From Clostridia bacterium (GTDB lineage Bacteria > Bacillota > Clostridia > TANB77 > CAG-508): a DNA stretch of 64,000 bases. The DNA lies in the NCBI GenBank assembly GCA_022797145.1, contig JAAWKA010000006.1, positions 14,306 to 78,305 on the forward strand, given 5' to 3'. Made by a program: the position numbers and the translations under genes. Positions 21,255 to 48,868 of this stretch are shown one piece after another (the stretch's first letter is position 1; each line of letters opens with the position of its first letter). The notes beneath the pieces are model-generated. The model was not told where the DNA came from. It was given only the letters and a program-made list of their open reading frames with translations, and made no database searches.

Positions 21255-22151
21255 ATGAAAATAAATAGATTGTTTGAAATAGTATATTTATTATTAGAAA
21301 GAAAAACATTAACTGCAAAGGAACTATCAGAATATTTTGGAGTATCCATTAGAACTATATATAGAGATATTGATATATTAAGTACAGCTAATATTCCAAT
21401 TTATACTAGTAAAGGAAAAAATGGAGGAATCAGTTTATTAGATAGTTATGTATTTGATAAATCAATATTATTAGAAGAAGAACAAAATGAAATTTTATTT
21501 GCATTACAGAGTTTAGAAAAATTAGGTATAGATAATGAAAAAAAAATTTTACAGAAAATGAATATACTATTTAATAAGGTAGTTAAGAATTGGATAGAAA
21601 TAGATTTTTCACACATGGAGACAGATGAAGGAGAAAATAAAAAATTTCATGATATAAAACAAGCAATATTAAATAAAAAAGTAATTGAATTTATATATTT
21701 TAATTCTTTAGGGGAAAAAACTAAAAGACAAGTGGAACCATTGCAAATTTGCTTTAAAGATAAAGCATGGTATGTAAAGGCATATTGTAAGTTAAGAGAA
21801 GATTATAGAGTTTTTAAAATTACAAGAATAAAAGATGCAAAAGTATTAAATGAAACTTTTGAAAGAGAAAACTTAACAAAATACAAAGAACAAACAAGTA
21901 ATTTAAAAATTGTATCATTAGAGGTGAAAATAGCAAAAGAAAAAGCATATAGGGTATATGATGAGTTTGAAATAGAGAATATAAAAACAAATGATGATGG
22001 AGATTTTATAGTGAAATTTAGTTGTCCTGATAATGATTGGATATATGAATATATTTTATCTTTTGGAGAATATATAAAAGTTATATCACCAAATTATGTG
22101 AAGGAAGTTATAAAAGAAAAAATTCAAAAAATGGTAAAAAATTATTTATAA
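21255..22151 (+). CDS. HTH plus WYL-domain transcriptional regulator (YafY family)
   Basis: N-terminal wHTH (LTAKELSEYFGVSIRTIYRDIDIL) and a WYL core (VEPLQICFKDKAWYVKAYCKLREDYRVFKITRI). Confidence 0.8.
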   Translation: MKINRLFEIVYLLLERKTLTAKELSEYFGVSIRTIYRDIDILSTANIPIYTSKGKNGGISLLDSYVFDKSILLEEEQNEILFALQSLEKLGIDNEKKILQKMNILFNKVVKNWIEIDFSHMETDEGENKKFHDIKQAILNKKVIEFIYFNSLGEKTKRQVEPLQICFKDKAWYVKAYCKLREDYRVFKITRIKDAKVLNETFERENLTKYKEQTSNLKIVSLEVKIAKEKAYRVYDEFEIENIKTNDDGDFIVKFSCPDNDWIYEYILSFGEYIKVISPNYVKEVIKEKIQKMVKNYL

Positions 22152-22208: not shown

Positions 22209-22682
22209 ATGAAATTTGAAATTGTAGAATTAGAAGAAAAACTAGTTGAAGGATTGCAAATAAGAACGACAGAGGAATATGGAGAAGCTACACAACAAAT
22301 AGTAAATGTGTGGCAAAAATTTTTAGGTGAAGGAATATATGATAAAATTGAAAATAAGAAAAATAGCAAAACAATTGGATTATATACAGATTATGAAGGT
22401 GACTACACGAAACCATATAATTTTATTGCTTGTACAGAAGTGAATAAAAAATCTGAAAATATTGAAGACAGAGTAGTAAAAGTTATACCAAAAGGGAAGT
22501 ATGCTAAATTTGTAATTTTTGCAGTTGATGGAGACATATCAAAATCTTTAGAAGAAGCTTGGGAAAAAATTTGGAGCATGAATTTAAACATAAAATATAC
22601 TTGCAATTTTGAGGAATATCAAGATAACTCAGAAGATACTCAAAACGAGGAAATTCATCTTTATGTTGAAATAGAAGGTTAA
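22209..22682 (+). CDS. GyrI-like small-molecule-binding domain protein
   Basis: 157 aa with MKFEIVELEEKLVEGLQIRT... and a C-terminal ..FEEY......IHLYVEI, the typical AraC-effector/GyrI-like fold signature. Confidence 0.65.
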   Translation: MKFEIVELEEKLVEGLQIRTTEEYGEATQQIVNVWQKFLGEGIYDKIENKKNSKTIGLYTDYEGDYTKPYNFIACTEVNKKSENIEDRVVKVIPKGKYAKFVIFAVDGDISKSLEEAWEKIWSMNLNIKYTCNFEEYQDNSEDTQNEEIHLYVEIEG

Positions 22683-22688
22683 AATATT

Positions 22689-23327
22689 ATGCCATTTGAT
22701 TATAAGAAAGAATACAAGGAATTTTATATGCCAAAAAATAAACCTAGTATTGTTGAAGTGCCTAAAATTAATTATATAGCGGTTAGAGGAAGGGGAAATC
22801 CAAATGAAGAAAATAGTGAATATAAAGATTCAATAGGACTTTTGTATGGAATTGCTTTTACGATAAAAATGAGTTATAAGGGAACACATAAAATAGAGGG
22901 CTATTTTGAATATGTTGTACCACCATTAGAGGGTTTTTGGTGGCAAGATGGAAATAAATTAGGAATAGATTATAAAAGTAAGGATAAGCTTAAGTTTATT
23001 TCTGTAATTCGATTACCAGATTTTGTATCAAAAGAAGATTTTGACTGGGCTACCAAAGAAGCGACTAAAAAGAAAAAACAGGATTTTTCAAAGGTTGAAT
23101 TTTTAACTTATGATGAAGGGATTTGTGTTCAATGTATGCATATTGGTAGTTATGATAAGGAAGCAACAACAGTTAATTTAATGCACAAATTTGCAAAAGA
23201 AAATGGATACGAACTAGATATAACAGATACAAGATTACATCATGAGATATATTTAAGCGATCCAAGAAAATGTGATGTAAGTAAATTAAAGACTCTTATA
23301 AGGCACCCAATTAAGAAAAGAAAATAA
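22689..23327 (+). CDS. GyrI-like domain protein (second paralogous type)
   Basis: The N-terminus FDYKKEYKEFYMPKNKPSIVEVPKINYIAVRGRGNPN and ..HHEIYLSDPRK are typical of the larger GyrI-like family. Confidence 0.6.
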   Translation: MPFDYKKEYKEFYMPKNKPSIVEVPKINYIAVRGRGNPNEENSEYKDSIGLLYGIAFTIKMSYKGTHKIEGYFEYVVPPLEGFWWQDGNKLGIDYKSKDKLKFISVIRLPDFVSKEDFDWATKEATKKKKQDFSKVEFLTYDEGICVQCMHIGSYDKEATTVNLMHKFAKENGYELDITDTRLHHEIYLSDPRKCDVSKLKTLIRHPIKKRK

Positions 23328-23400: not shown

Positions 23401-25296
23401 TTATAAATAATTATTTCTTATATAGTCTTTAAATAATTCAATATCTTCAAATACTCTATATTTTTGTAAATTAACTTTACTAATATTACTGTTTTCTTCA
23501 TCTATCATAATTGCAACTGGTTCACTTAAATTATTTTGTATTCCATCAGGCCATGCCAGATCAATAATAATACTTTCATTATCATTTATTTTCAATTCAT
23601 AATTAATTTCTCCACTTGAAAGCCCATTTTCATCCATCCAATATGATAATTCCAATATTTTTTCATCTTCATTTATATCATTTGATACCCCTTTTCTGTT
23701 AGCATAATCAGTAATTTCCACTTTATCAACCTTGTTGTCCAAAAGACTATTTAAGAAATTATTTGCACAATCAGCTAATAATTTTCTTCTTTCAGCTAAA
23801 AATGCTTCATAATTTTCTACTTTAAATAATTCTTTATCATTTGTTGGAATCCAATGAGACTCTATTGCTCCTGGTTGTTTTTCAATATAAATTGGAATAT
23901 ATTTTTCTGGTTTTTCATCAGATATATCTTCATTTGTTTTTCTAGTAATAAATGTATAATTTGCTAAAGAATTTACTACAGATTTAGTTCTACCATTTTT
24001 ATATAGTAATGCTTTAGGGAATATATGATGAATTTCTAATGAAGAATTTTTTCCTAATAAGCAATTCTTTAACTCAATACCACTTGAAAAATCTTTTGAC
24101 TTATTCATTCGTGTTAATAAATATAATAAAGGATAAAATCTAGCACCAGTTCCCCATCCCAAGAAATCCTCTGGTTTTATCGTTAAATCTGACCTATCTT
24201 GTCTTAATTGATTTATCAGTCCATCTATTCCTTCACCATTATTTACTACATTTAAATCTCTTGCAAGAACACTTTCTGTTGAGCCTGCATATCTTCCCCA
24301 TAGAAATGTATGAATATACCAATATAATAATTTGTTCCATTCTGCATCATTTAGTTCTCTATTGTCTTTATTTAAATAGCCTATCATTAATGGAATAGCA
24401 AATTTACTACTTAGTACTCTTGTATTATCTAATCCAAGTCTTGAACCAATTTGGTTTAAAATTTCATCTATTCTATTTTCCACATATTTAAGACTTTTCT
24501 TAAATTCTTCTATATCTACTTGTTCTAATTCAGAGAAATAGGATTTACTTGTTAAATAAACTGTTATACACCTTAGCAACCATTCTAGTTTAAATTCATA
24601 ACCAGCTTCTTTTAATCTATTTAATATACCTCTTAGTTTTTGCCTTGCTTCTGGCCACAATGCACATATTTTTGCTAATGCTAAATCACCTTTACTTAAT
24701 TTAGTACCACCACTATTTAAATTGTTAAAAATTTCAACTACAACATCTAAAGTCTTGTCTTCTCCAACAACTTCCTCTATTTGCAAATCTTTTTGTGTTA
24801 AATTTAAATAAAGTCTATTTAGTTTTTCTATATAATCCATATAAAATTCTTTTTTATCTGATTGTACAATATAGTTTGCAGCTCCTAATTTTAACACTTG
24901 TGTTACATCTACCCAATAATCATCATCTTTCATCTTAATTGGAGCATAAAACTCGAATATTTCTGTATTCAAGTTAAAATATAAATTTTTAAATGCTTTA
25001 TCATCACCTTCAAAAAATGATGGAGCGTCTCCTTTAATTAATCCATATAGTGTTGTTAACCTTTGTTGTCCATCCAATATTAATTTTACAGATTTGTTTG
25101 CCTGATCAATATTTCCTCTTGTATATGATTCATCAGCTTCTGTTGTCCAAATTAGTAATCCACCTATTGGGTATCCCTTATATAAAGAATTTGCTAGCTT
25201 TTTGACTTGTTCTCTATTCCATACATACCCCCTTTGAAAATCTGGTAATGCATATTGTTTTGCATCAATTTGTGCTAGAATATCAATAATTTTCAT
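23401..25296 (-). CDS. GmrSD-type DUF262-DUF1524 nuclease (type IV restriction-like) with an extra C-terminal domain
   Basis: DUF262 motifs DFQRGYVW and LDGQQRLTT. DUF1524 His-Me finger LEIHHIFPKA..NSLANYTFITRKTNEDIS. About 120 further residues are uncharacterised. Confidence 0.8.
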   Translation of the reverse strand: MKIIDILAQIDAKQYALPDFQRGYVWNREQVKKLANSLYKGYPIGGLLIWTTEADESYTRGNIDQANKSVKLILDGQQRLTTLYGLIKGDAPSFFEGDDKAFKNLYFNLNTEIFEFYAPIKMKDDDYWVDVTQVLKLGAANYIVQSDKKEFYMDYIEKLNRLYLNLTQKDLQIEEVVGEDKTLDVVVEIFNNLNSGGTKLSKGDLALAKICALWPEARQKLRGILNRLKEAGYEFKLEWLLRCITVYLTSKSYFSELEQVDIEEFKKSLKYVENRIDEILNQIGSRLGLDNTRVLSSKFAIPLMIGYLNKDNRELNDAEWNKLLYWYIHTFLWGRYAGSTESVLARDLNVVNNGEGIDGLINQLRQDRSDLTIKPEDFLGWGTGARFYPLLYLLTRMNKSKDFSSGIELKNCLLGKNSSLEIHHIFPKALLYKNGRTKSVVNSLANYTFITRKTNEDISDEKPEKYIPIYIEKQPGAIESHWIPTNDKELFKVENYEAFLAERRKLLADCANNFLNSLLDNKVDKVEITDYANRKGVSNDINEDEKILELSYWMDENGLSSGEINYELKINDNESIIIDLAWPDGIQNNLSEPVAIMIDEENSNISKVNLQKYRVFEDIELFKDYIRNNYL

Positions 25297-25567: not shown

Positions 25568-27442
25568 TTATTCTCCTTCTAATATTTGTGTCAATTCTGC
25601 TAAATACTTTTGCTTAATATATTTTATTAAATTTGCATCTTCGGAAATCATAACTAAAACTCTTCTTGAATATTCTTGTATTATTTCTTCTAGCAAATAA
25701 TCTATTTTATGATCTGTATCTATATTTATATGTAACTTAGCATATTCATTGTTATCTAATATTTCTTCTATTTCTTTTTTTCTTAAATTATATAAATTAT
25801 CTAATTCTTCTTCATTTAATAGTTCTTTAATCCTATTTTTAAAATTTTCAATATTTCTATCTACACCTATTTTTTCTTTTAATTCTGAAATAAATTTTGA
25901 TGTTATATATTTAACTATTTGTCCCTCTTTTTGATGCTTTAATCTTTCGAAAATTTTACTTTTAGTTTTTTCTAGTGCTTCATCTGTAGCACAAAATCTA
26001 ATTTTAGCTTGTTTTATTATTTCTTCATCTAACAAAATATTTTCTATTTCTAAAATATTTAAAACAAGTATTTTATCTTCCTTTAATTTTTTAATATTCT
26101 CTTCTGTTCTAAAATCAAAATCAATAATTCCATATGCTCTATTTTGAGTACCAAATGTTTTATTATACATCCTAGTGTTTTCTATTACTTCATTATGACC
26201 AGCAGAAGATATAATATTAGCATTTTTAAATAAAATACTATATAATTTTTTGTCTAGACTTCGATCTGTTCCTTCACAGTACAAAATTGTTTTTTCTAAA
26301 AATGCATTTATTCTACTTCCTGTCAAATATCTTATTTGAGATAATCTATCATCATCAAAAATTTCAATATTATTATTATCGTTTCTTTTCAACATAATAA
26401 TATTTTCTTGTTCTGCAATGTCTATAAAAGTAGGTGAATGTGTTGCTAATACAATTTGTCTTCCATTAGTAGCATATTCTTTTAATTCATTATATAGACC
26501 TTCTTTTCTTGATTCATTTATAAAAGCATCTGGTTCATCAAATAATATTAATGAATTTTCATCTCCTAAAAACTCAAGTATGACTTTAAATAAAATCATC
26601 TTTTTTTGTCCTTCACTTAAATAAGAAGCTTCAAATGAATTATTTAGATATATTAATATATCTGTTATATTTGATTGTTTTAATATGTTAAAAATTTCAT
26701 TTTCATAATAAGATAAGCTATTTGATAAAATAATTTTACTAACATCTCCAGCAAGATATAATTTATTATCTTTTAAATTATATTGGTTCTTAATATTAAA
26801 AAAATTATTAATATCTTGTATTTTTCCACGAATCCATCTATATTCTTCTTCAGGATTATTTTGTGTTACAATTTCCTTTATAACTTCATTTTGATTGTTT
26901 TTAAAATTTTTAACAGTATATAGAAAAATTATATTATTTACTGTATCAATATTAATTTCATTTTTTAGGAAATTTTTAATGTTTTCTAACTGGCTATATA
27001 CTAATGTAAATAATGCATTTTTCCACATTCTTTTATCTACATAAATTAATCTATCATGTTTATGTTTCTCATTTGAATAATAATATTTCCTATATAATCT
27101 TTCATCTTCGCCACTATACATAGTAATGATATTAGTAGGCAATAGATTATCTCTTTCCAATAAATATCTTGATATAACTTTTCCATTTTTCTTTACAAGC
27201 CTTCTTTTTTTATTTATTATTGTAATTATATTATCATTTAAACTATAGGTTAATTCATATTCTATTTTTGAAATTTTGTTATTATATAAACAGTTAAAAA
27301 TTTCACTCAAACATTCTATTATATTGCTTTTTCCAGTACCGTTATTTCCTACAAAAATGCTTAATCCATTACTTTTTTCAAAATCTATTGTTAAATTTGT
27401 TAAATTTTTATAATTATTAATCCATAACTTTAAAAGTTTCAT
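25568..27442 (-). CDS. Fused ABC-type ATPase (AAA_15/21-like) and DUF4435/TOPRIM-like domain protein (PARIS AriA-AriB / RloA-RloB / OLD-like)
   Basis: Walker A GNNGTGKS, ABC signature LSEGQKK, Walker B LILFDEPD, and H-loop ATHSP. These are followed by ILYCEGTDRSLD and YGIIDFDF (EG..D / DxD TOPRIM-like motifs) and a helical tail. GGAG RBS lies in the 11-nt gap after hsdS. Confidence 0.75.
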   Translation of the reverse strand: MKLLKLWINNYKNLTNLTIDFEKSNGLSIFVGNNGTGKSNIIECLSEIFNCLYNNKISKIEYELTYSLNDNIITIINKKRRLVKKNGKVISRYLLERDNLLPTNIITMYSGEDERLYRKYYYSNEKHKHDRLIYVDKRMWKNALFTLVYSQLENIKNFLKNEINIDTVNNIIFLYTVKNFKNNQNEVIKEIVTQNNPEEEYRWIRGKIQDINNFFNIKNQYNLKDNKLYLAGDVSKIILSNSLSYYENEIFNILKQSNITDILIYLNNSFEASYLSEGQKKMILFKVILEFLGDENSLILFDEPDAFINESRKEGLYNELKEYATNGRQIVLATHSPTFIDIAEQENIIMLKRNDNNNIEIFDDDRLSQIRYLTGSRINAFLEKTILYCEGTDRSLDKKLYSILFKNANIISSAGHNEVIENTRMYNKTFGTQNRAYGIIDFDFRTEENIKKLKEDKILVLNILEIENILLDEEIIKQAKIRFCATDEALEKTKSKIFERLKHQKEGQIVKYITSKFISELKEKIGVDRNIENFKNRIKELLNEEELDNLYNLRKKEIEEILDNNEYAKLHINIDTDHKIDYLLEEIIQEYSRRVLVMISEDANLIKYIKQKYLAELTQILEGE

Positions 27443-27453
27443 ATCTTACTCCA

Positions 27454-28830
27454 TCATTTAAAAATCTTTGTACTTATATATATTTCAATTTGATGATTTA
27501 TTAGTTCAGAGTGTATTTTTAATTTATTAATTTTTTCTCGAATTTCAAAAATATAATTAACAATTTGTTGCTGGACTTCAATTTCTGGTAAGGGTATCAT
27601 TATTTTTTTTACATTTTCTATCCCTAATTCTGTTTGTTTTGTTGCTTCAGCTCCTTTTAATACTTCAATCTGATTTTGTACAATGTTACTATTAAATAAA
27701 TATGTATAGTATTCTGGATTTATATATTTAGTATTTACTCTTAATAATAATATATGACTATCGTACATTAGGTTTGTATTTTCATCATTAACTATACAAC
27801 TGGCTCTTCCTATAGTTCCTTCCCCTGTCGAATTAATTAAAATATCATTTTTTTGAGTAAAAATTTCTTTATTAATTGATAAAAGCCAATTTGTATTTAC
27901 ATTCTTAGCATAAGATAAATCTATATAATTTAATCTATTGCATTTTTGATTTAAAATTATAGATTCTGAATTTTCATCATATTTTGGGCTTTTTCCTCTG
28001 GCTAAAATTTGATAATATTTTGAATTTAATGAAATAATATTAAATTTATTACTTTCTATATTAGAAGCCTTTAAAATTTTGTTTACTCCCCATTGTGTTA
28101 TATTCATGAAATTAATAAATTCTAATATTTTATATTTTTTATTTGAAATGTTATTATTTTTTTTAATATTAATTTCTAGTTTTTCATATAAGTATTTATC
28201 TATACTATCTTCTAACATTTTTATCGTAGCTTCATTATCTTTTATAGTATTGCTCATTATTTTAAATTCTTTAACAATCTGATTTTGAATTTCTAACTTT
28301 GGTACTGGAATTTTGGTATTTAAAAATAACTCTTCTTGTAAATATAATCTATTTCCGCTACCATTACTGCATACTTCCCATTTTTCCACAAACCATTTAG
28401 AGGTTAGTATTAATACTAAATATTCTAAATTAACTTTGTCTAAATCAGCATCAAAAACCCAAAAATTTCCTGTAATGACAGCTTTGTCTAGTTCTTCATT
28501 TACGATTCCTATAGCTCCATTTCTTGCATCTATTTTAGATAATATTAATTGACCTGTTTTTATCTGAAATTGATCTTTGGTATTAATATATTTTCCATAT
28601 ATATTATCCCTTAATAATACTCCTCCATTATTAGTTTTTATTGTAACTCTCTTATACCTTTGGTCATTTGCAATTTTAATTTTATCTTTAATCCTTTTAA
28701 TACATTCTCTAATTGGTATCATATTAAATTTTGTATTTATATAGTTATCATATGAGAACTTTTTAATATTCCAATTAACTAAATCATTAAATTTTATAAA
28801 TTTTAATATATTATAATTTTCTTTTACCAT
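27454..28830 (-). CDS. hsdS: Restriction-modification specificity subunit (HsdS-like, two target-recognition domains)
   Basis: Two TRD repeats, each ending in the conserved-region helix (..IPVPKLEIQNQIVKEF.. and ..IPLPEIEVQQQIVNYIFEIREKINKL). The start overlaps the methyltransferase stop (ATGGTAA). Confidence 0.85.
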   Translation of the reverse strand: MVKENYNILKFIKFNDLVNWNIKKFSYDNYINTKFNMIPIRECIKRIKDKIKIANDQRYKRVTIKTNNGGVLLRDNIYGKYINTKDQFQIKTGQLILSKIDARNGAIGIVNEELDKAVITGNFWVFDADLDKVNLEYLVLILTSKWFVEKWEVCSNGSGNRLYLQEELFLNTKIPVPKLEIQNQIVKEFKIMSNTIKDNEATIKMLEDSIDKYLYEKLEINIKKNNNISNKKYKILEFINFMNITQWGVNKILKASNIESNKFNIISLNSKYYQILARGKSPKYDENSESIILNQKCNRLNYIDLSYAKNVNTNWLLSINKEIFTQKNDILINSTGEGTIGRASCIVNDENTNLMYDSHILLLRVNTKYINPEYYTYLFNSNIVQNQIEVLKGAEATKQTELGIENVKKIMIPLPEIEVQQQIVNYIFEIREKINKLKIHSELINHQIEIYISTKIFK

Positions 28831-31085
28831 ATCATTATTTCCTTTTCTCCATTTATTGTCCTTTGTATAAAATCATTTTCTAATATATCATATTCTATAA
28901 CATTCTTTTTTGGGTTCCACAATTTATTTTCTGACACATAGTCTTTAAATTCTTTTTCTAAAGTTAATAATTCTAAATTTTCAGTTTTCATACCAGTACT
29001 TGTTATACCTGCATCATTTATTTTTGCAATTGGTATTTCATAATCAAAGTATTTCTTTATCAATGGTTTTGCTTCATCAATAACTATATTATCTAGTTCT
29101 GCTAATAATTTCAATATTTTCCTTTTTTCAGATGTTTTTTTGTCATTACATTCCTTCAATTGATTGTTAAGGTTAAAATATTTATCTTTATATTTTTCTC
29201 TCACTTCACATATTGCCTTTTTGACAGCTTTACTATAATCGTTTTCCTCTTCTTCAGTAAATTTTTTCATAAATATTAAACTGGGTTTAACAGTTGCACC
29301 AGCTGCAATAAACACATCTTGAGGAATAGAACAAATTAATAATATTTTTGCTTTTCCTTCAAAATAATCTCTTACTTTTTGTAGATTACTTGTATTTAAT
29401 ACTCCTTCTGGAAGAACCATTCCCATTCTTCCGCCTTTTTTTAGTAATCTTAAACATCTTTCCATAAATAATACTTCTGTTAAAGTTGAAACAGAGCCTA
29501 AATCATATAAATCTAACAATCTAGTATTTATATTATCATCAATTTGTTTTAAAGAGTTTATGTATGCTTCTCCATACTTAGCAATATATTCTTGTTTTGC
29601 TTCCTCATCTTTAAACTTATCATCTTCTGTTATTTTTTGGGTTTTGCCAATTCTTGAACCAAATGGAGGATTTGTAAGTATTACGTCAAACTTATTTTCA
29701 AATATTCCCCCAATATTTAATAAACCATCATGATGATGTACTCCTCCATGACCATCACCATGCATTATCATATTCATTTTAGATGTCCTTGCCATTCTTG
29801 GATTTGCATCTGTACCATATATACAATTATATGAAAGGTGGTGTAGTCTACTTTTTTTAAAATCGCTTACTAATTCTGTATTTAATAATAATTGCATTTT
29901 ATCTATTTTCTCATTTATAAGTATCTTTTCATTTTCTTTTAAATTTTCATAATTTTTTCCTTCAATAATTTTCCTTAGTTTTTCCTTCGATTCTTTAACA
30001 TCTTTTTCTATTTTTTCTCTAATGTATTCAAATGCTTTTATTAAAAAACCTCCACTACCACAAGTAGGATCGCAAATAAATTCACCTTCTTGGGGATCTA
30101 AAATATGTGTCATAAAATTTACTATGGTTCTAGGAGTAAAAAATTGCCCAAGTTCACCTCTGAATGTTTTTCCTAAAAATTCTTCAAAAGCGATACCTTT
30201 AACGTCATCTGATGTATCTGACAAATTATATTTTTGAAGTTTCTCTAATATAGCTTCAAAACTATTTTCTCGAATTTTAATTACTTCATTTGATTCAAAT
30301 AACTTATTAGTTCTATAAAAATGTTTTGCATCTTCAAATAAGGTTTGCATATATTCTTTTTTATCTGCATTATAATTTATTTTTTGATACTCTTCATAAA
30401 CCTTTTTATTTTCTTTATATTTCTTTAAAGTAAAGATTTCTTTACCCTTTACTTCTTTTTCATGTCTTATTTTAATAAACAATATTTTACTTATTTCATC
30501 AAATGCAGCTTCTGGTGATAACTTATCATTATTCCTAATTATATTATGGCATGTAAATAAAAGCCTAGCAAATTCATCTCTTGTAAAAGTTTTAGTTTCT
30601 GATAAAATTTCTTTTATACGTTTACTATCATTAACCTCATCAGCTTTGGGGATCGATAATATTTCTTCTAAGGCCATAGGTATTTCGCCTTTTACTACAT
30701 TAAAATACTTTGTTTCTTTTTGATTTGTTGTAACAAAAAATTTTGCTCCTGCCCATGAGGCATAATTATATCCTTGAAAATAATCTTCTTCATGCAATTT
30801 TACATTTTCTGCTTTACATTCTACAACGATAAATGCACTTTTATTTTCTCTTTTTTCTATTTTACTTTTCCATATAACAATATCTGCTCTAGCTTGTCCA
30901 TTCCCTCTTCTAGAATTATTTACTTGAACTTCTTGATCCATTTGTTCTTTTTCATATCCTAGTTCGTTAATTAAATGTAAAATAAACTCTTGCCTAACTA
31001 TTTCTTCAGGGGTTTCTATTAACCATGTATCTTTTAGAGGGGCATATATTTTTCCATCTTTTTTTTGTATATATATTTTTTCCAT
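28824..31085 (-). CDS. hsdM: N6-adenine DNA methyltransferase (HsdM-like, gamma class) fused to an N-terminal HSDR_N/PD-(D/E)xK nuclease-like domain (BcgI-A-like architecture)
   Basis: N-terminal ~130 aa carry D68 (RADIVIW) and E89-x-K91 (FIVVECKAE). SAM motif I is FICDPTCGSGGFL and catalytic motif IV is LTNPPFGS. 753 aa. RBS GGAGG. Confidence 0.8.
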   Translation of the reverse strand: MEKIYIQKKDGKIYAPLKDTWLIETPEEIVRQEFILHLINELGYEKEQMDQEVQVNNSRRGNGQARADIVIWKSKIEKRENKSAFIVVECKAENVKLHEEDYFQGYNYASWAGAKFFVTTNQKETKYFNVVKGEIPMALEEILSIPKADEVNDSKRIKEILSETKTFTRDEFARLLFTCHNIIRNNDKLSPEAAFDEISKILFIKIRHEKEVKGKEIFTLKKYKENKKVYEEYQKINYNADKKEYMQTLFEDAKHFYRTNKLFESNEVIKIRENSFEAILEKLQKYNLSDTSDDVKGIAFEEFLGKTFRGELGQFFTPRTIVNFMTHILDPQEGEFICDPTCGSGGFLIKAFEYIREKIEKDVKESKEKLRKIIEGKNYENLKENEKILINEKIDKMQLLLNTELVSDFKKSRLHHLSYNCIYGTDANPRMARTSKMNMIMHGDGHGGVHHHDGLLNIGGIFENKFDVILTNPPFGSRIGKTQKITEDDKFKDEEAKQEYIAKYGEAYINSLKQIDDNINTRLLDLYDLGSVSTLTEVLFMERCLRLLKKGGRMGMVLPEGVLNTSNLQKVRDYFEGKAKILLICSIPQDVFIAAGATVKPSLIFMKKFTEEEENDYSKAVKKAICEVREKYKDKYFNLNNQLKECNDKKTSEKRKILKLLAELDNIVIDEAKPLIKKYFDYEIPIAKINDAGITSTGMKTENLELLTLEKEFKDYVSENKLWNPKKNVIEYDILENDFIQRTINGEKEIMIW

Positions 31086-31413
31086 TATGAACCTCCATAG
31101 CCACTTTTTTGTTGATTATATCACACATCTCTTTTATGTCCAACTTTATGTATGAAAAAACAAAATTTTTCTACAATATTTTACTTTATAGCCTGTATAG
31201 CAAGAATAGATGCCAGATATTTTTCTTTGCTGATTTTTAATTATTATCATTCTTATATTTTTTAAAATTCTTGAAACATTAATATATGGAAATTCGCCCC
31301 TCCAGTATATGGAAAATTGCACACTAGACAACAGGAAGCTCAAATCATAGCTAAAATGTATGAGATTATTTATTATAAAGTTGAAAACCTTAGAAGAAAA
31401 TCATAACATACAT

Positions 31414-46523: not shown

Positions 46524-46588
46524 CTTGACTAAAAAAATAATATATAATAAAATACAAACAAAATTTTGTAAAATTAGAGGAGAAAAAA

Positions 46589-48868
46589 ATGCAAAACTTA
46601 TTAGATGAGTTAAATGACAAACAATATGAAGCTGTTATAAACTATGAAGGACCATGTCTTGTAATAGCGGGAGCAGGTAGTGGAAAAACAAAAGTACTAA
46701 CACATAAAATAGCATACTTAATACAAGAAAAAAATATAAAACCTTGGAACATATTAGCAATAACATTTACTAATAAGGCAGCAAATGAAATGAAACAAAG
46801 AGTAGAAACATTAATTGGAGAAATTGCAAACGATATGTGGATAGGAACATTTCATGCAATATGTGTAAGAATTTTAAGAAGGTATATAGATAGAATAGAA
46901 TTTGAAAAGTCTTTTGTAATATTTGATACATCAGACCAAAGAACATTAATAAAAAACTGTCTAAAAGAATTAGATATAGACGATAAAATGTTTACAGACA
47001 GAATAGTACAATATGAAATAAGCAATGCAAAAAATGATATGTTAGAACCAGAGACATATGCAGCAAAAGCAATAGGAGATTTTAGAAAAGAAAAAATAGC
47101 ACAAATATATGAACTATATCAAAAAAGATTAAAAGAAAACAATGCAATAGACTTTGATGATATAATAAATTTTTCAATAAAAATAATCACAGAAAATCCA
47201 GATATATTAGAATATTATTCGGAGAAGTTTAGATACATTTTAGTAGACGAATATCAAGATACCAACAAAGCACAATTTACATTAATAAGTTTACTTGCAG
47301 CAAGATATGGAAATATAACAGTAGTAGGAGACAATGATCAAGGAATTTACTCTTTTAGAGGAGCAGATATATCAAACATATTAAATTTTGAAAAAGACTT
47401 TCCAGGAACTAAAATTATAAAATTAGAACAAAACTATAGATGCACAGGAAATATATTAAATGCAGCTAATTCAGTAATAAAAAACAATGAAGTTAAATAT
47501 GAAAAAAAATTGTGGACAGAAAATGAAATAGGAAAATTACCATATTTACATACTGCAGAAGATGAATATGATGAAGCAAGATTTATTGTAGAACAAATTA
47601 ATCATTTAAAAATAGAAGAATACTATAAATATTCAGATTTCTCAATACTATATAGAATGAACACACAATCTCGTGCAATAGAAGAAATATTAGTAAGAGA
47701 AGGTATACCATATAAAATTATTGGCGGATTAAAATTTTATGAAAGAAAAGAGATAAAAGACATAATTGCATATTTAAGACTTATACATAACACTAATGAC
47801 AATTTAAGTTTAATAAGAGTCATAAATGAACCTAAAAGAGGAATAGGAAAAACAAGTATAGAAAAAGTACAAAAGATTTCAGAACAAAATGGAATTTCAA
47901 TGTATGAAGTCATAAAACATGCAGAAGAATATGGACTAAACAAAGTATTTTTAAATTCAAGAGAATTTATACAAACAATAGAAGAATTAAGGAAAGAAAA
48001 AGAAAACATAAACATATCAGAATTAATAAAACAAACACTAAACAAAACTGGATATACAAAAGCACTAGAAACAGAAAATACAGTAGAAGCAGAGAATAGA
48101 ATAGAAAACCTAGAAGAATTTTTAACAGTAGCAATAGAATATGAAGAACAAGTTGCAGAAAATGATTTAGGAGACTTTTTAGAAGGAATTACACTTACAA
48201 GTGACATAGATAATTTAGAAGAAGAACAAGACATGGTAACTTTAATGACATTACATAGTGCAAAAGGTTTAGAATTTCCAGTAGTATTTTTAGTAGGAAT
48301 GGAAGAAGGAATATTTCCAGGATATAAATCTATATCTGAACCAAAAGAATTAGAAGAAGAAAGACGATTATGCTATGTTGGTATAACAAGAGCAAAAAAC
48401 TATTTATATTTAACCTGTGCAAAAAGAAGAACAATATTTGGCTCAACGAGCTGTAACCCTGTATCAAGATTTATAGGAGAAATACCAGATGAATACATAG
48501 AAGGAAGACAAGAAAAGGATGAGAACATATTCAATGATACAAAATATGAATGGACTTATCAAGAATCAAAAATTGTTAAATATAAAAATCAAAATTTAAG
48601 AAATACAACTAAGGAAGAGATTAAAAAGAAAGAATATCCATTTAAAAGTGTAGAAACCTTTTTAAACAATATTTCAAAAAAAGAAGAAAATCAAATAAAC
48701 TTATCACAATACAAAGCTGGACAAAAAGTATATCATAAAAAATTTGGAGAAGGAACAATAAACTATGTAGAAAAGGAAGGAACAGACTTAAAAGTAGACA
48801 TTACCTTTGATAAAGTAGGACATAAACGATTAATGGCAAAATTTGCAGGCTTAGAAATAATAGAATAA
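46589..48868 (+). CDS. pcrA: ATP-dependent DNA helicase PcrA (UvrD family)
   Basis: SF1 motifs AGAGSGKT, DEYQDTN, VGDNDQGIYSFRGA, TLHSAKGLEFPVVF, and YVGITRAK. Confidence 0.9.
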   Translation: MQNLLDELNDKQYEAVINYEGPCLVIAGAGSGKTKVLTHKIAYLIQEKNIKPWNILAITFTNKAANEMKQRVETLIGEIANDMWIGTFHAICVRILRRYIDRIEFEKSFVIFDTSDQRTLIKNCLKELDIDDKMFTDRIVQYEISNAKNDMLEPETYAAKAIGDFRKEKIAQIYELYQKRLKENNAIDFDDIINFSIKIITENPDILEYYSEKFRYILVDEYQDTNKAQFTLISLLAARYGNITVVGDNDQGIYSFRGADISNILNFEKDFPGTKIIKLEQNYRCTGNILNAANSVIKNNEVKYEKKLWTENEIGKLPYLHTAEDEYDEARFIVEQINHLKIEEYYKYSDFSILYRMNTQSRAIEEILVREGIPYKIIGGLKFYERKEIKDIIAYLRLIHNTNDNLSLIRVINEPKRGIGKTSIEKVQKISEQNGISMYEVIKHAEEYGLNKVFLNSREFIQTIEELRKEKENINISELIKQTLNKTGYTKALETENTVEAENRIENLEEFLTVAIEYEEQVAENDLGDFLEGITLTSDIDNLEEEQDMVTLMTLHSAKGLEFPVVFLVGMEEGIFPGYKSISEPKELEEERRLCYVGITRAKNYLYLTCAKRRTIFGSTSCNPVSRFIGEIPDEYIEGRQEKDENIFNDTKYEWTYQESKIVKYKNQNLRNTTKEEIKKKEYPFKSVETFLNNISKKEENQINLSQYKAGQKVYHKKFGEGTINYVEKEGTDLKVDITFDKVGHKRLMAKFAGLEIIE

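What the first reader, a model, noticed from the sequence alone, without database searches (positions are those of the whole stretch)
25568..27442. Single-chain ABC ATPase plus DUF4435/TOPRIM protein (fused PARIS AriA-AriB / RloA-RloB-like) as third gene of the RM operon
Seen in sequence:
- Complete ABC ATPase motifs are present (GNNGTGKS, LSEGQKK, LILFDEPD, ATHSP).
- They are followed by CEGTDRSLD and IIDFDF, the acidic E-G / DxD pattern of DUF4435 and OLD-type TOPRIM nucleases.
- A ~140-aa helical tail follows.

Established knowledge:
- ATPase plus DUF4435 pairs were first noted as restriction-linked ORFs (rloA/rloB) inside Campylobacter type I loci.
- The PARIS system (AriA ATPase plus AriB TOPRIM) fires when the phage anti-restriction protein Ocr is present.
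- OLD and Gabija GajA proteins share the ATPase-TOPRIM layout.

At 624 aa this protein is shorter than AriA plus AriB combined. It lacks an obvious long coiled-coil insertion. It may therefore be a distinct compact lineage.
Basis: partly seen in the sequence, partly recalled or inferred. Interest (0 to 1): 0.65.

Follow-up and report, generated by a model that had tools for sequence, protein, structure and literature searches.

The report
Hybrid ATPase-nuclease tied to R-less methylase
The gene really encodes a one-chain ABC ATPase plus DUF4435/TOPRIM nuclease, but it is a hybrid: its ATPase half belongs to a widespread family found only behind one kind of restriction-modification pair that lacks the usual HsdR cutting subunit, and only its nuclease half is PARIS-like.

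Summary
ORF 25568-27442 (-) encodes 624 aa with intact ABC ATPase motifs, a DUF4435 domain above Pfam's threshold, and a helical tail.

It is the third gene of a tight operon. The order is M (PD-(D/E)xK domain fused to an N6-methyltransferase), S, ATPase-nuclease, then GmrSD/BrxU-like. No HsdR is present.

The 'fused PARIS' reading is only half right.
- **Tail:** the DUF4435 tail is related to known merged AriAB proteins.
- **Head:** the ATPase head is not. It belongs to a family found after this same M-S pair in 77 of 78 loci across at least eight phyla. That family usually carries an OLD-like TOPRIM tail.
- **Conclusion:** the protein is a head/tail chimera.

In the other direction, about 37% of related M-S pairs lack the ATPase. 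Some of these carry other effectors instead. M keeps an invariant nuclease triad in every case.

Best reading (0.4): an M-S-dependent accessory ATP-driven nuclease acting as a second-line or guard effector. Main rival (0.3): it is the restriction arm, like MAD3/MAD4 of MADS.

It is a new variant of known kinds and of moderate interest.

The parts
28824..31085 (-). M subunit, 753 aa. It has an N-terminal HSDR_N_2 PD-(D/E)xK nuclease-like domain (D68, E89, K91), then a helical region, then a gamma-class N6-adenine methyltransferase (DPTCGSGGF at 339, NPPF at 472).
   Evidence: Pfam HSDR_N_2 1.2e-25 and N6_Mtase 5.6e-35. PADLOC MTase_I PDLC03018 scores 1179 bits. NCBIfam MAD2 scores 278 bits, below its cut-off of 720. 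The D/E/K triad is at least 90% conserved in 70 homologues and invariant in 49 further ones.
30648..31010 (-). The PD-(D/E)xK (HSDR_N_2) domain of M, residues 26-146.
27454..28830 (-). S (specificity) subunit, 458 aa, with two target-recognition regions. Its start overlaps the end of M by 7 nt.
   Evidence: Pfam Methylase_S 3.6e-16 in two stretches. Coordinates.
25568..27442 (-). The gene in the finding: a 624-aa ABC ATPase-DUF4435/TOPRIM protein.
26348..27442 (-). ATPase head, residues 1 to about 365. It has Walker A K38, signature 275-281, Walker B D302/E303 and H335. A mixed alpha/beta insert of about 150 aa (residues about 114-260) replaces a long coiled coil. The head belongs to the M-S-linked OLD-like family.
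26033..26293 (-). TOPRIM-type core of the DUF4435 tail, residues 384-470. It has E390-G, G415-H416, D441-x-D443 and E465-x-E467-N.
   Evidence: Pfam DUF4435. Invariant columns. hhalign against the OLD-like tails of sister proteins aligns EG/GG/DxD at E 1.8e-4.
25571..26026 (-). All-helical C-terminal region, residues about 473-624. It is part of the AriAB-type tail.
   Evidence: AlphaFold models. The match of merged-PARIS-type proteins extends to the C-terminus.
23401..25296 (-). Fourth gene: a GmrSD/BrxU-like type IV restriction enzyme, 631 aa. It lies 271 nt downstream on the same strand, with no terminator-like site between.
   Evidence: Pfam GmrSD_N 5.4e-32. PADLOC HEC-05 3.5e-48. No terminator found. 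The same gene is linked in Treponema loci L005, L007 and L008.
31115..31142 (-). Promoter-like site: TGGACA, 16 nt spacer, TG-TATAAT. It ends 30 nt upstream of the M start codon.
   Evidence: 11 of 12 matches. This is weak evidence, because such sites are as frequent as in shuffled AT-rich sequence.

Best explanation
The protein is an accessory ATP-driven nuclease that depends on the neighbouring M-S restriction-modification core. It is not an independent PARIS system and not a classical type I subunit.

**What the comparisons show**
- The core is an R-less pair. M carries its own conserved PD-(D/E)xK nuclease-like domain fused to an adenine methyltransferase. S supplies sequence specificity.
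- The third gene's ATPase head belongs to an OLD-like ABC ATPase family that occurs essentially only behind this M-S pair.
- Its tail has been exchanged. Most family members carry an OLD-like TOPRIM tail of about 200 aa. This clade carries the DUF4435 tail of about 250 aa typical of merged PARIS (AriAB).

**What is inferred**
- The head docks on, or monitors, the M-S complex.
- When the core is blocked or overwhelmed, for example by a phage anti-restriction DNA mimic, or when it reports foreign DNA, ATP binding or hydrolysis in the dimerised heads releases the TOPRIM active site (E390, D441/D443, E465/E467).
- The nuclease then cuts nucleic acid. By analogy with AriB the target is most likely tRNA or other RNA. 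DNA is possible by analogy with OLD and GajA. The cut stops the infection as a second line of defence.
- This is the logic of PrrC with EcoprrI and of PARIS with Ocr.
- GmrSD downstream adds cover against modified DNA.
For: **1. Linkage of the head to M-S**
- 77 of 78 ATPase-anchored loci with enough upstream DNA have the same M upstream on the same strand. S was detected in 73 of them, and it abuts the ATPase in 52 of those 73.
- The hosts include Clostridia, Treponema, Bacteroidota, Alpha-, Delta- and Epsilonproteobacteria, Ignavibacteria, Peregrinibacteria and Acidobacteria.

**2. Merged-PARIS proteins behave differently**
- Proteins sharing only the tail sit in unrelated places: mobile-element or phage-like DNA, beside a type II RM, or after another hsdS.

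**3. The protein is a chimera**
- The head scores 112-234 bits against M-S-linked ATPases and at most 37 bits against 100 of 109 fused DUF4435 representatives.
- The tail scores 68-126 bits against those same representatives.
- PADLOC profiles give the same split.

**4. The ATPase is accessory to the core**
- Of 49 M-anchored metagenome loci with at least 3.4 kb downstream, 31 have the ATPase and 18 do not.
- In those 18 the position after S is empty or holds other genes: HEPN_ApeA, a DndB-like protein with a deoxyribosyltransferase-like domain, or a recombinase.
- M keeps D68/E89/K91 in 18 of 18 loci without the ATPase and in 31 of 31 loci with it. M-S therefore probably has a nuclease function of its own.

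**5. Evolutionary rate**
- The ATPase evolves faster than M. Median identity is 36% against 58%. The two track each other only loosely, with Spearman 0.29. This fits an exchangeable sensor or effector.

**6. The active sites are intact**
- ATPase and TOPRIM motifs are invariant.

**7. Precedents**
- PARIS is triggered by Ocr, and AriB cleaves tRNA (PMC11464382).
- The PrrC/EcoprrI guard model and frequent embedding of ABC ATPase-nuclease genes and GmrSD in RM loci are described in bioRxiv 10.1101/2024.01.29.577857.

**8. Expression**
- Low-depth metatranscriptome contigs cover all four genes and span their junctions.
Against: - No experiment bears on this family. The trigger, the substrate and any physical contact with M-S are all inferred.
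[quoted passage not shown] They are not merely a backup.
- No HsdR exists, so some component must restrict. It is unproven that M's PD-(D/E)xK domain cuts DNA.
- Neither sequence nor Foldseek aligned the tail to E. coli AriB itself. The tRNase analogy therefore rests on Pfam and PADLOC family membership alone.
- The RNA evidence is low-depth contigs that may include DNA.
Confidence: 0.4

Rival explanations
1. It is the restriction arm of a three-part, R-less RM system, a 'mini-MADS'. The M2S complex recognises unmethylated bipartite sites. It then recruits or activates the ABC ATPase-TOPRIM protein. That protein stands in for HsdR's SF2 motor and nuclease, possibly working with M's PD-(D/E)xK domain, and cleaves the foreign DNA in an ATP-dependent way.
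For: - No HsdR lies in the window, and 83 of 85 related loci also lack one.
- Genes are tightly coupled and the head family is exclusive to M-S.
- The ATPase head covers the whole PADLOC mad3 model (2-374 against 1-360 of 374, 3e-17). M matches the N-terminal half of NCBIfam MAD2 at 278 bits.
- In MADS, mad3 and mad4 are required for defence. A mad3 mutant still methylates. Deletion of mad5 is lethal unless mad2 or mad3 is also deleted.
- Burman et al. class MADS3-4 as an ABC ATPase plus TOPRIM pair.
- Most family members carry an OLD-like TOPRIM tail, and that type is a DNase in OLD and GajA.
Against: - 18 of 49 close M-S pairs lack the ATPase but keep an invariant nuclease triad in M.
- The slot after S can hold unrelated stand-alone effectors such as HEPN_ApeA.
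- The tail was swapped for an AriB-type domain whose characterised member cuts tRNA, not DNA.
- MADS also needs mad6-8, which are absent here. Scores against the MAD2 and MAD3 equivalog models are far below their cut-offs.
Confidence: 0.3
2. It is an autonomous single-gene PARIS (merged AriAB) that merely sits in an RM locus. The head directly senses phage anti-restriction proteins such as Ocr, and the DUF4435 nuclease then cleaves tRNA. M and S are neighbours, not partners.
For: - It has AAA_15/AAA_21 plus DUF4435 above Pfam thresholds. Those are the rule used to detect PARIS.
- It hits PADLOC AriAB models at 1.2e-34 and 4e-22.
- The closest relatives of the tail are hundreds of fused proteins of 600-700 aa.
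- Defence genes are often embedded in RM loci.
- One merged-PARIS-type protein, P0175, also follows an hsdS.
Against: - The head is not of the merged-PARIS lineage.
- The head's family is found in 77 of 78 cases behind one specific M-S type across many phyla. Truly merged PARIS proteins are scattered over contexts.
- An autonomous gene would not keep such exclusive linkage while swapping among hosts.
Confidence: 0.15
3. It has no defence role of its own. It could be an inactive remnant, or an ATPase that only modulates methylation, for example as an assembly or turnover factor for an epigenetic M-S pair.
For: - M-S pairs without R genes often act as orphan methyltransferases.
- Decayed copies exist. 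L003 has lost M and half of S. P0142 is a 5'-truncated fragment with only the DUF4435 part.
Against: - The reading frame is intact and is the same length as homologues of 76-85% identity.
- All catalytic motifs of both domains are invariant over 24 sequences.
- The neighbour is a GmrSD defence gene.
- The related ATPase-TOPRIM fusion HEC-04 needs both active sites for defence.
Confidence: 0.05

Closest known systems
Merged PARIS (single-gene AriAB; PADLOC PDLC02982/02981; Rousset 2022, Burman 2024)
   Same: - A single chain with an AAA_21/AAA_15 ABC ATPase followed by a DUF4435 TOPRIM domain and a helical C-terminus.
- From about residue 384 to the end, the tail is homologous to these proteins at 68-126 bits.
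   Different: - The head is from another ATPase lineage.
- The AriAB profile is matched only over its C-terminal 60%.
- The gene is obligately linked to an M-S pair, whereas merged PARIS occurs in varied contexts.
- No similarity to E. coli AriB itself was detectable.
OLD family nucleases, class 1 (P2 Old, Thermus scotoductus OLD 6p74) and GajA of Gabija
   Same: - N-terminal ABC ATPase plus C-terminal TOPRIM in one chain. These are the best structural matches of the whole model.
- Most members of the head's family carry an OLD-like TOPRIM tail.
- The best PDB match of the tail is the Xanthomonas OLD C-terminal region 6njx, but it is weak (E 0.08).
   Different: - The tail here is DUF4435, not PF20469.
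- There is no UvrD-like partner as in Gabija.
- The gene is linked to M-S.
MADS (methylation-associated defence system; mad2 methylase, mad3 ABC ATPase, mad4 TOPRIM, mad5 specificity)
   Same: [quoted passage not shown]
- MADS recognises a bipartite site. Its ATPase is needed for restriction but not for methylation.
   Different: - MADS has eight genes, and mad6-8 are mandatory in its detection model. They are absent here.
- Here the ATPase and TOPRIM are fused, and the gene order is M-S-ATPase.
- Scores against the MAD2 and MAD3 equivalog models are far below their cut-offs: 278 against 720, and 43 against 420.
PrrC with EcoprrI (and RloA/RloB, AbiL, HEC-01/HEC-04 genes embedded in RM loci)
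   Same: - An ABC-type ATPase joined to a nuclease, encoded right after hsdM and hsdS.
- PrrC is held silent by the RM complex and is released by a phage anti-restriction peptide (as summarised).
- HEC-04 is a validated ATPase-TOPRIM fusion.
   Different: - Those loci are complete type I systems with HsdR.
- PrrC's nuclease is not a TOPRIM.
- No HEC-04 or PrrC model was among the 25 PADLOC hits listed, of 55 found.
- The RloB family (PF13707) was not matched.
Type IIB/IIG enzymes with a separate S subunit (BcgI-like). This comparison is from my own knowledge.
   Same: The M-S core has the same layout: a PD-(D/E)xK domain fused to a gamma-class adenine methyltransferase in one chain, plus a type I-like S with two recognition regions and no motor subunit.
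   Different: - BcgI-type enzymes have no ATPase partner.
- Homology to them was not tested here.
- PADLOC files this M under type I methyltransferases.

Membership tests
PARIS (AriA/AriB or merged AriAB) | ABC ATPase of the AAA_15/AAA_21 type | tested here: met
   AAA_21 scores 51 bits against a gathering score of 27. AAA_15 scores 45 bits against 32.
PARIS (AriA/AriB or merged AriAB) | DUF4435 (PF14491) TOPRIM domain above threshold | tested here: met
   39 bits against a gathering score of 27, over residues 384-593. The tail is homologous to hundreds of fused DUF4435 proteins.
PARIS (AriA/AriB or merged AriAB) | Whole protein matches the merged AriAB profile end to end | tested here: not met
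   PDLC02982 scores 118 bits over model positions 214-565 only. Four true merged proteins score 350-412 bits over positions about 20-565.
PARIS (AriA/AriB or merged AriAB) | ATPase head of the AriA / merged-PARIS lineage | tested here: not met
   The head scores at most 37 bits against 100 of 109 fused DUF4435 representatives, and 112-234 bits against M-S-linked ATPases. Against AriA 8ux9_B it scores 33 bits, with the best-aligned stretch covering the signature-to-H-loop region (query residues 274-342).
PARIS (AriA/AriB or merged AriAB) | AriB acidic active-site set (E26, D30, D88, E90, E122) | tested here: inconclusive
   A matching pattern is present. E390, D441-x-D443 and E465/E467 are invariant, and position 393 is acidic in most sequences. 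No direct alignment to AriB was obtained.
PARIS (AriA/AriB or merged AriAB) | Triggered by Ocr-like anti-restriction proteins; cleaves tRNA | not testable with these tools
   This needs co-expression and RNA assays.
OLD family nuclease (single-chain, class 1-like) | OLD-type ABC ATPase fold at the N-terminus | tested here: met
   Foldseek top hits are GajA 8sm3 at 1.5e-11, retron Eco8 OLD 9x9b, and Thermus OLD 6p74 at 5.4e-11.
OLD family nuclease (single-chain, class 1-like) | C-terminal OLD-like TOPRIM (PF20469) with a catalytic E and DxD | tested here: inconclusive
   PF20469 was not hit. hhalign against the OLD-like tails of sister proteins aligns the EG/GG/DxD core at E 1.8e-4, probability 48%. 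Foldseek finds OLD C-terminal region 6njx at E 0.079.
Classical type I restriction-modification system | HsdM and HsdS genes | tested here: met
   N6_Mtase and Methylase_S. PADLOC MTase_I scores 1179 bits.
Classical type I restriction-modification system | HsdR (SF2 helicase motor plus nuclease) in the locus | tested here: not met
   No such ORF lies near the operon. The 775-aa Walker-A ORF at 46541-48865 is PcrA/UvrD. Only 2 of 85 related loci have any helicase-like ORF within 10 kb, and both are on the opposite strand.
MADS | MAD2 and MAD3 equivalogs | tested here: not met
   NCBIfam MAD2 scores 278 bits against a cut-off of 720. MAD3 scores 43 bits against 420. PADLOC mad3 scores 61 bits with full-length coverage, and mad2 scores 145 bits.
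MADS | mad6-mad8 genes, mandatory in the published detection model | tested here: not met
   The operon has four genes (M, S, ATPase-nuclease, GmrSD), and the flanking genes are housekeeping.

The most novel reading that the evidence does not exclude
The triad may be a distinct and widespread class of RM-like immunity. It consists of a PD-(D/E)xK-methyltransferase, an S subunit and an OLD-like ABC ATPase-TOPRIM protein, with no HsdR. In this reading an ABC/SMC-type ATPase takes the place of the SF2 motor of type I enzymes. It couples methylation-based self/non-self reading to an exchangeable TOPRIM effector. The window's clade would then show that a DNA-directed OLD tail can be replaced by a PARIS-type tail that probably targets tRNA, so a restriction system can be rewired into an abortive-infection system without changing its sensor.
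Probability: 0.25. Interest if true: 0.75.

Novelty: new variant of a known kind. Interest (0 to 1): 0.5.

Why it matters
**Annotation.** Pipelines that follow the 'AAA_21 plus DUF4435 means PARIS' rule are likely to label this gene as PARIS and the two genes before it as an incomplete type I system. The comparisons show one functional neighbourhood instead. An R-less M-S core, with a nuclease domain in M, recruits a dedicated family of OLD-like ATPase-nucleases whose tails are interchangeable.

**Experiments this sets up.**
- Whether ABC ATPase-TOPRIM proteins next to RM genes act as guards or as restriction subunits. A compact three-gene system could answer this more easily than the eight-gene MADS.
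- Whether the effector can be swapped between DNA and tRNA targets while the sensor stays the same.

**Practical use.** The host is a mouse-gut spore-former, and relatives occur in common human-gut genera such as Flavonifractor, Bacteroidales and Treponema. The system is therefore relevant to phage and plasmid transfer in gut communities and to making these bacteria genetically tractable.

Tried and rejected
- **Sequence link to solved AriB.** phmmer with the tail and hmmsearch with an 11-sequence tail profile against PDB found no AriB. The whole-family profile found only ATPases.
- **Structural link of the tail.** Foldseek of a confident tail model (pLDDT 88.7) against PDB and BFVD gave nothing below E 0.001. 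The top hits were the OLD C-terminal region (E 0.079) and an RloB-like phage protein (E 0.099). These are suggestive only.
- **NCBIfam.** No equivalog model covers this protein or its OLD-tailed relatives. TIGR04435 'restriction system-associated AAA ATPase' scores 36-62 bits against a cut-off of 300.
- **HsdR.** It was searched for and not found. This rules out the idea that the gene is embedded in a complete type I system.
- **Obligate third subunit of every such M-S pair.** Rejected, because 18 of 49 M-anchored loci lack the ATPase.
- **Mirror-tree test of M against the ATPase.** The correlation is only loose (Pearson 0.54, Spearman 0.29). It does not decide between the models.
- **Word-indexed homologue search with the tail profile.** It returned mostly fragments. 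The exhaustive representative search was needed.
- **Literature.** Krishnan et al. [quoted passage not shown] It is not held and could not be read. Searches for HSDR_N_2, OLD plus hsdM/hsdS, and the final MADS paper gave nothing further.
- **Promoter and terminator scans.** They are uninformative in this AT-rich DNA: 84 sites found against 80 expected.
Full report
**1. The observation**

The ORF at 25568-27442 on the minus strand is intact and encodes 624 aa.
- Walker A GNNGTGKS 32-39
- signature LSEGQKK 275-281
- Walker B LILFDEPD 298-305
- H-loop ATHSP 333-337
- CEGTDRSLD 389-397
- IIDFDF 439-444

Pfam gives AAA_21 (2.7e-13), AAA_15 (1.1e-11) and DUF4435 PF14491 (1e-9; 39 bits against a gathering score of 27; residues 384-593).

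In an alignment of 24 homologues (37-85% identity) the following are invariant: K38, S276/E277/G278, D302/E303, H335, E390/G391, G415/H416, D441/D443 and E465/E467/N468.

AlphaFold models (pLDDT 80 for the whole protein, 88.7 for the tail) show three parts:
- an ABC head with a mixed alpha/beta insert of about 150 aa in place of a long coiled coil
- a four-stranded TOPRIM-like alpha/beta unit
- an all-helical region from about residue 473 to 623

**2. The operon**

Upstream on the same strand lie M and S.
- M (28824-31085, 753 aa) has an HSDR_N_2 PD-(D/E)xK domain plus an N6_Mtase domain.
- S (27454-28830, 458 aa) overlaps the end of M by 7 nt.
- The ATPase gene starts 11 nt after the S stop, behind a GGAG site.
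- A GmrSD/BrxU-like gene (23401-25296; PADLOC HEC-05 3.5e-48) follows 271 nt downstream, with no terminator-like site between.

The flanking genes are chromosomal housekeeping and sporulation genes: YpeB, a D-Ala-D-Ala carboxypeptidase, a ComEA-like protein, and a Mur ligase.

There is no HsdR. No SF2-helicase-like ORF lies nearby, and the only large Walker-A ORF in the window is PcrA/UvrD, 15 kb away.

The DNA is found in mouse gut metagenomes and in isolates of one organism. Low-depth metatranscriptome contigs cover all four genes and span the M/S, S/ATPase and ATPase/GmrSD junctions. This is weak evidence of co-transcription, because DNA carry-over cannot be excluded.

**3. Relatives of the ATPase and their neighbours**

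Full-length homologues of 37-40% identity occur in Flavonifractor plautii, Acutalibacteraceae and Treponema. In every such locus the gene follows the same kind of M and S.

A scan of one genome per species found 80 loci through the ATPase head. Together with the look-ups, 77 of 78 loci with at least 3.8 kb upstream have this M upstream on the same strand. S was detected in 73, and in 52 of those 73 it abuts the ATPase ORF. The hosts span Clostridia, Spirochaetes, Bacteroidota, three proteobacterial classes, Ignavibacteria, Peregrinibacteria and Acidobacteria. Helicase-like ORFs are absent from 83 of 85 loci.

Only 5 of the 81 distinct tails compared (from loci L001 and L005-L008), plus the window, are DUF4435 tails. 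The other 76 share a tail of about 200 aa. That tail gives sub-threshold OLD-like TOPRIM, Toprim_2 and DUF3226 hits, and it matches the C-terminus of retron Ec67-type endonucleases. Profile-profile comparison aligns the EG / GG / DxD core of the two tail types (E 1.8e-4).

**4. The protein is a head/tail chimera**

An exhaustive search with the tail against 1.84 billion representatives found 894 relatives. The best 150 are nearly all fused proteins of 600-700 aa that match at their C-termini.

The head behaves differently. It scores 112-234 bits against all 82 M-S-linked ATPases. It scores at most 37 bits against 100 of the 109 fused DUF4435 representatives. Only nine, from the window's own clade, score 164-207 bits.

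PADLOC shows the same split.
- True merged PARIS proteins hit the AriAB profile PDLC02982 at 350-412 bits over model positions about 20-565.
- The window protein and its Flavonifractor homologue reach 113-118 bits over positions 214-565 only.
- Their heads hit PDLC00293 at 140-162 bits, exactly as the OLD-tailed M-S-linked proteins do.

The merged-PARIS-type proteins sit in unrelated contexts: phage- or plasmid-like DNA, beside a type II system, or in one case after another hsdS.

The window's clade therefore arose by joining the M-S-linked head to an AriAB-type tail. The junction lies at about residues 365-384.

**5. The M-S core stands alone**

M is highly conserved, at 49-63% identity across phyla. 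Its D68...E89-x-K91 triad is at least 90% conserved in 70 sequences.

I anchored on M in metagenomes (80 loci, 56-65% identity). Of 49 loci with at least 3.4 kb downstream, 31 carry the ATPase after S and 18 do not. In those 18 the slot is empty or holds something else: a HEPN_ApeA protein, a DndB-like protein with a deoxyribosyltransferase-like domain, or a recombinase. Several have an unknown gene of 382-390 aa in front of M.

The nuclease triad of M is invariant in both groups, 18 of 18 and 31 of 31.

M and ATPase distances correlate only loosely (Pearson 0.54, Spearman 0.29). The ATPase is much more divergent than M, with median identity 36% against 58%.

**6. How it most likely works**

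Shown by the comparisons:
- The head family depends on this M-S type.
- The ATPase is accessory to the core.
- The effector tail is exchangeable.
- Both active sites are conserved.

Inferred: the head contacts or monitors M2S, and ATP-driven changes in a head dimer or oligomer unleash the TOPRIM nuclease.

I rank the readings as follows.
- **Guard or second-line effector, 0.4.** This is the logic of PrrC with EcoprrI and of PARIS with Ocr. It is favoured by the M-S pairs that lack the ATPase yet keep the invariant nuclease triad, by the alternative stand-alone effectors in the same slot, by the fast evolution of the ATPase, and by the AriB-type tail.
- **Restriction arm, 0.3.** This rests on the absence of any HsdR and on MADS. 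In MADS a related M sits with an ABC ATPase (mad3), a TOPRIM protein (mad4) and a specificity subunit. mad3 and mad4 are needed for defence, methylation survives loss of mad3, and loss of mad5 is lethal unless mad2 or mad3 is also lost.
- **Autonomous merged PARIS, 0.15.** The exclusive linkage of the head makes this unlikely.

**7. Comparison with what is known, and novelty**

Already described:
- fused ariAB genes
- a validated ATPase-TOPRIM fusion, HEC-04, and GmrSD/BrxU genes embedded in RM loci

I did not find any description of three things:
- this specific R-less triad as a unit
- its breadth across phyla
- the head/tail swap that created the window's clade

No NCBIfam model reached its curated cut-off for this protein or its OLD-tailed relatives, and none of the PADLOC models that matched represents the M-S-ATPase triad.

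I rate it a new variant of known kinds, of moderate interest. It would drop to 'new member of a known kind' if the 2020 classification already delineates the triad.

**8. Limits**
- All functional statements are inferences from sequence, context and analogy.
- Structural comparison of the tail was inconclusive.
- The expression evidence is weak.
- The M-anchored survey covers only M proteins at least 56% identical to the window's.

Noticed in passing
window 21255-22151 (+), with 22209-22682 and 22689-23327 (+): A WYL-domain transcription regulator (HTH_11-WYL-WCX) is followed by two GyrI-like or Cass2 small-molecule-binding proteins. The last of the three genes ends 74 nt from the 3' end of the GmrSD gene, convergent with the defence operon. 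From my own knowledge, regulators of this type (the BrxR/CapW family) control defence islands. Whether this one regulates the operon is unknown.
   Followed up: partly
window 23401-25296 (-): A GmrSD/BrxU-like (HEC-05) type IV restriction gene is the fourth gene. Among related loci GmrSD is adjacent mainly in the DUF4435-tailed clade: the window and Treponema L005, L007 and L008, placed either after the ATPase or before M. Among the 76 OLD-tailed loci it appears only once (L080, 4 kb away). The numbers are small and the loci are related, so this may be shared descent rather than functional linkage.
   Followed up: partly
window 30648-31010 (-) (M residues 26-146): The methyltransferase carries an N-terminal PD-(D/E)xK domain whose D68/E89/K91 triad is invariant in all 49 M-anchored relatives checked, whether or not the ATPase is present. 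M-S may therefore be a self-contained nuclease-methylase, with a BcgI-like layout, rather than an orphan type I methylase.
   Followed up: yes
L086 4482-7119; L096 7772-9280; L114 4115-5074; L118 6613-7782; L106 6653-7798: In M-S loci without the ATPase, the gene after S can be a DndB-like protein with a nucleoside-deoxyribosyltransferase-like domain (with an OGG-like neighbour) or a HEPN_ApeA protein. Many such loci have a conserved gene of 382-390 aa with no Pfam match just upstream of M. These look like alternative partners of the same core.
   Followed up: partly
L029 11659-13182; L057 11659-13185; L072 9020-10486 and 11177-13414: Some Bacteroidota loci carry a second, shorter ABC ATPase gene in tandem with the ATPase-TOPRIM gene. 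Other relatives of 700-770 aa have extra C-terminal domains (DUF4357, DUF5655).
   Followed up: no
L003 9256-11902; L166 5774-6694 (P0142): These are decayed copies. In one Flavonifractor-type contig, M and half of S are replaced by RNA polymerase genes while the ATPase gene stays intact. P0142 is a 5'-truncated remnant with only the DUF4435 part, next to an integrase.
   Followed up: partly
window 27879-28165 (inside the S gene): Two metatranscriptome runs show a sharp local rise in contig depth here, 116 and 74 against about 3-10 elsewhere. Contigs break at 27914 and 27949 and continue into unlike sequence. This may come from abundant foreign contigs that share a short stretch, or from a recombining or variable segment of S. 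It remains unexplained.
   Followed up: no
whole window: The window is about 25% G+C with sporulation genes (YpeB), and it is found in mouse gut metagenomes and isolates. The host is therefore a low-GC, spore-forming gut Firmicute. The defence operon is the only stretch between about 20 kb and 64 kb transcribed on the minus strand, and GC skew reverses over it. This is consistent with an inserted island of about 8 kb.
   Followed up: partly
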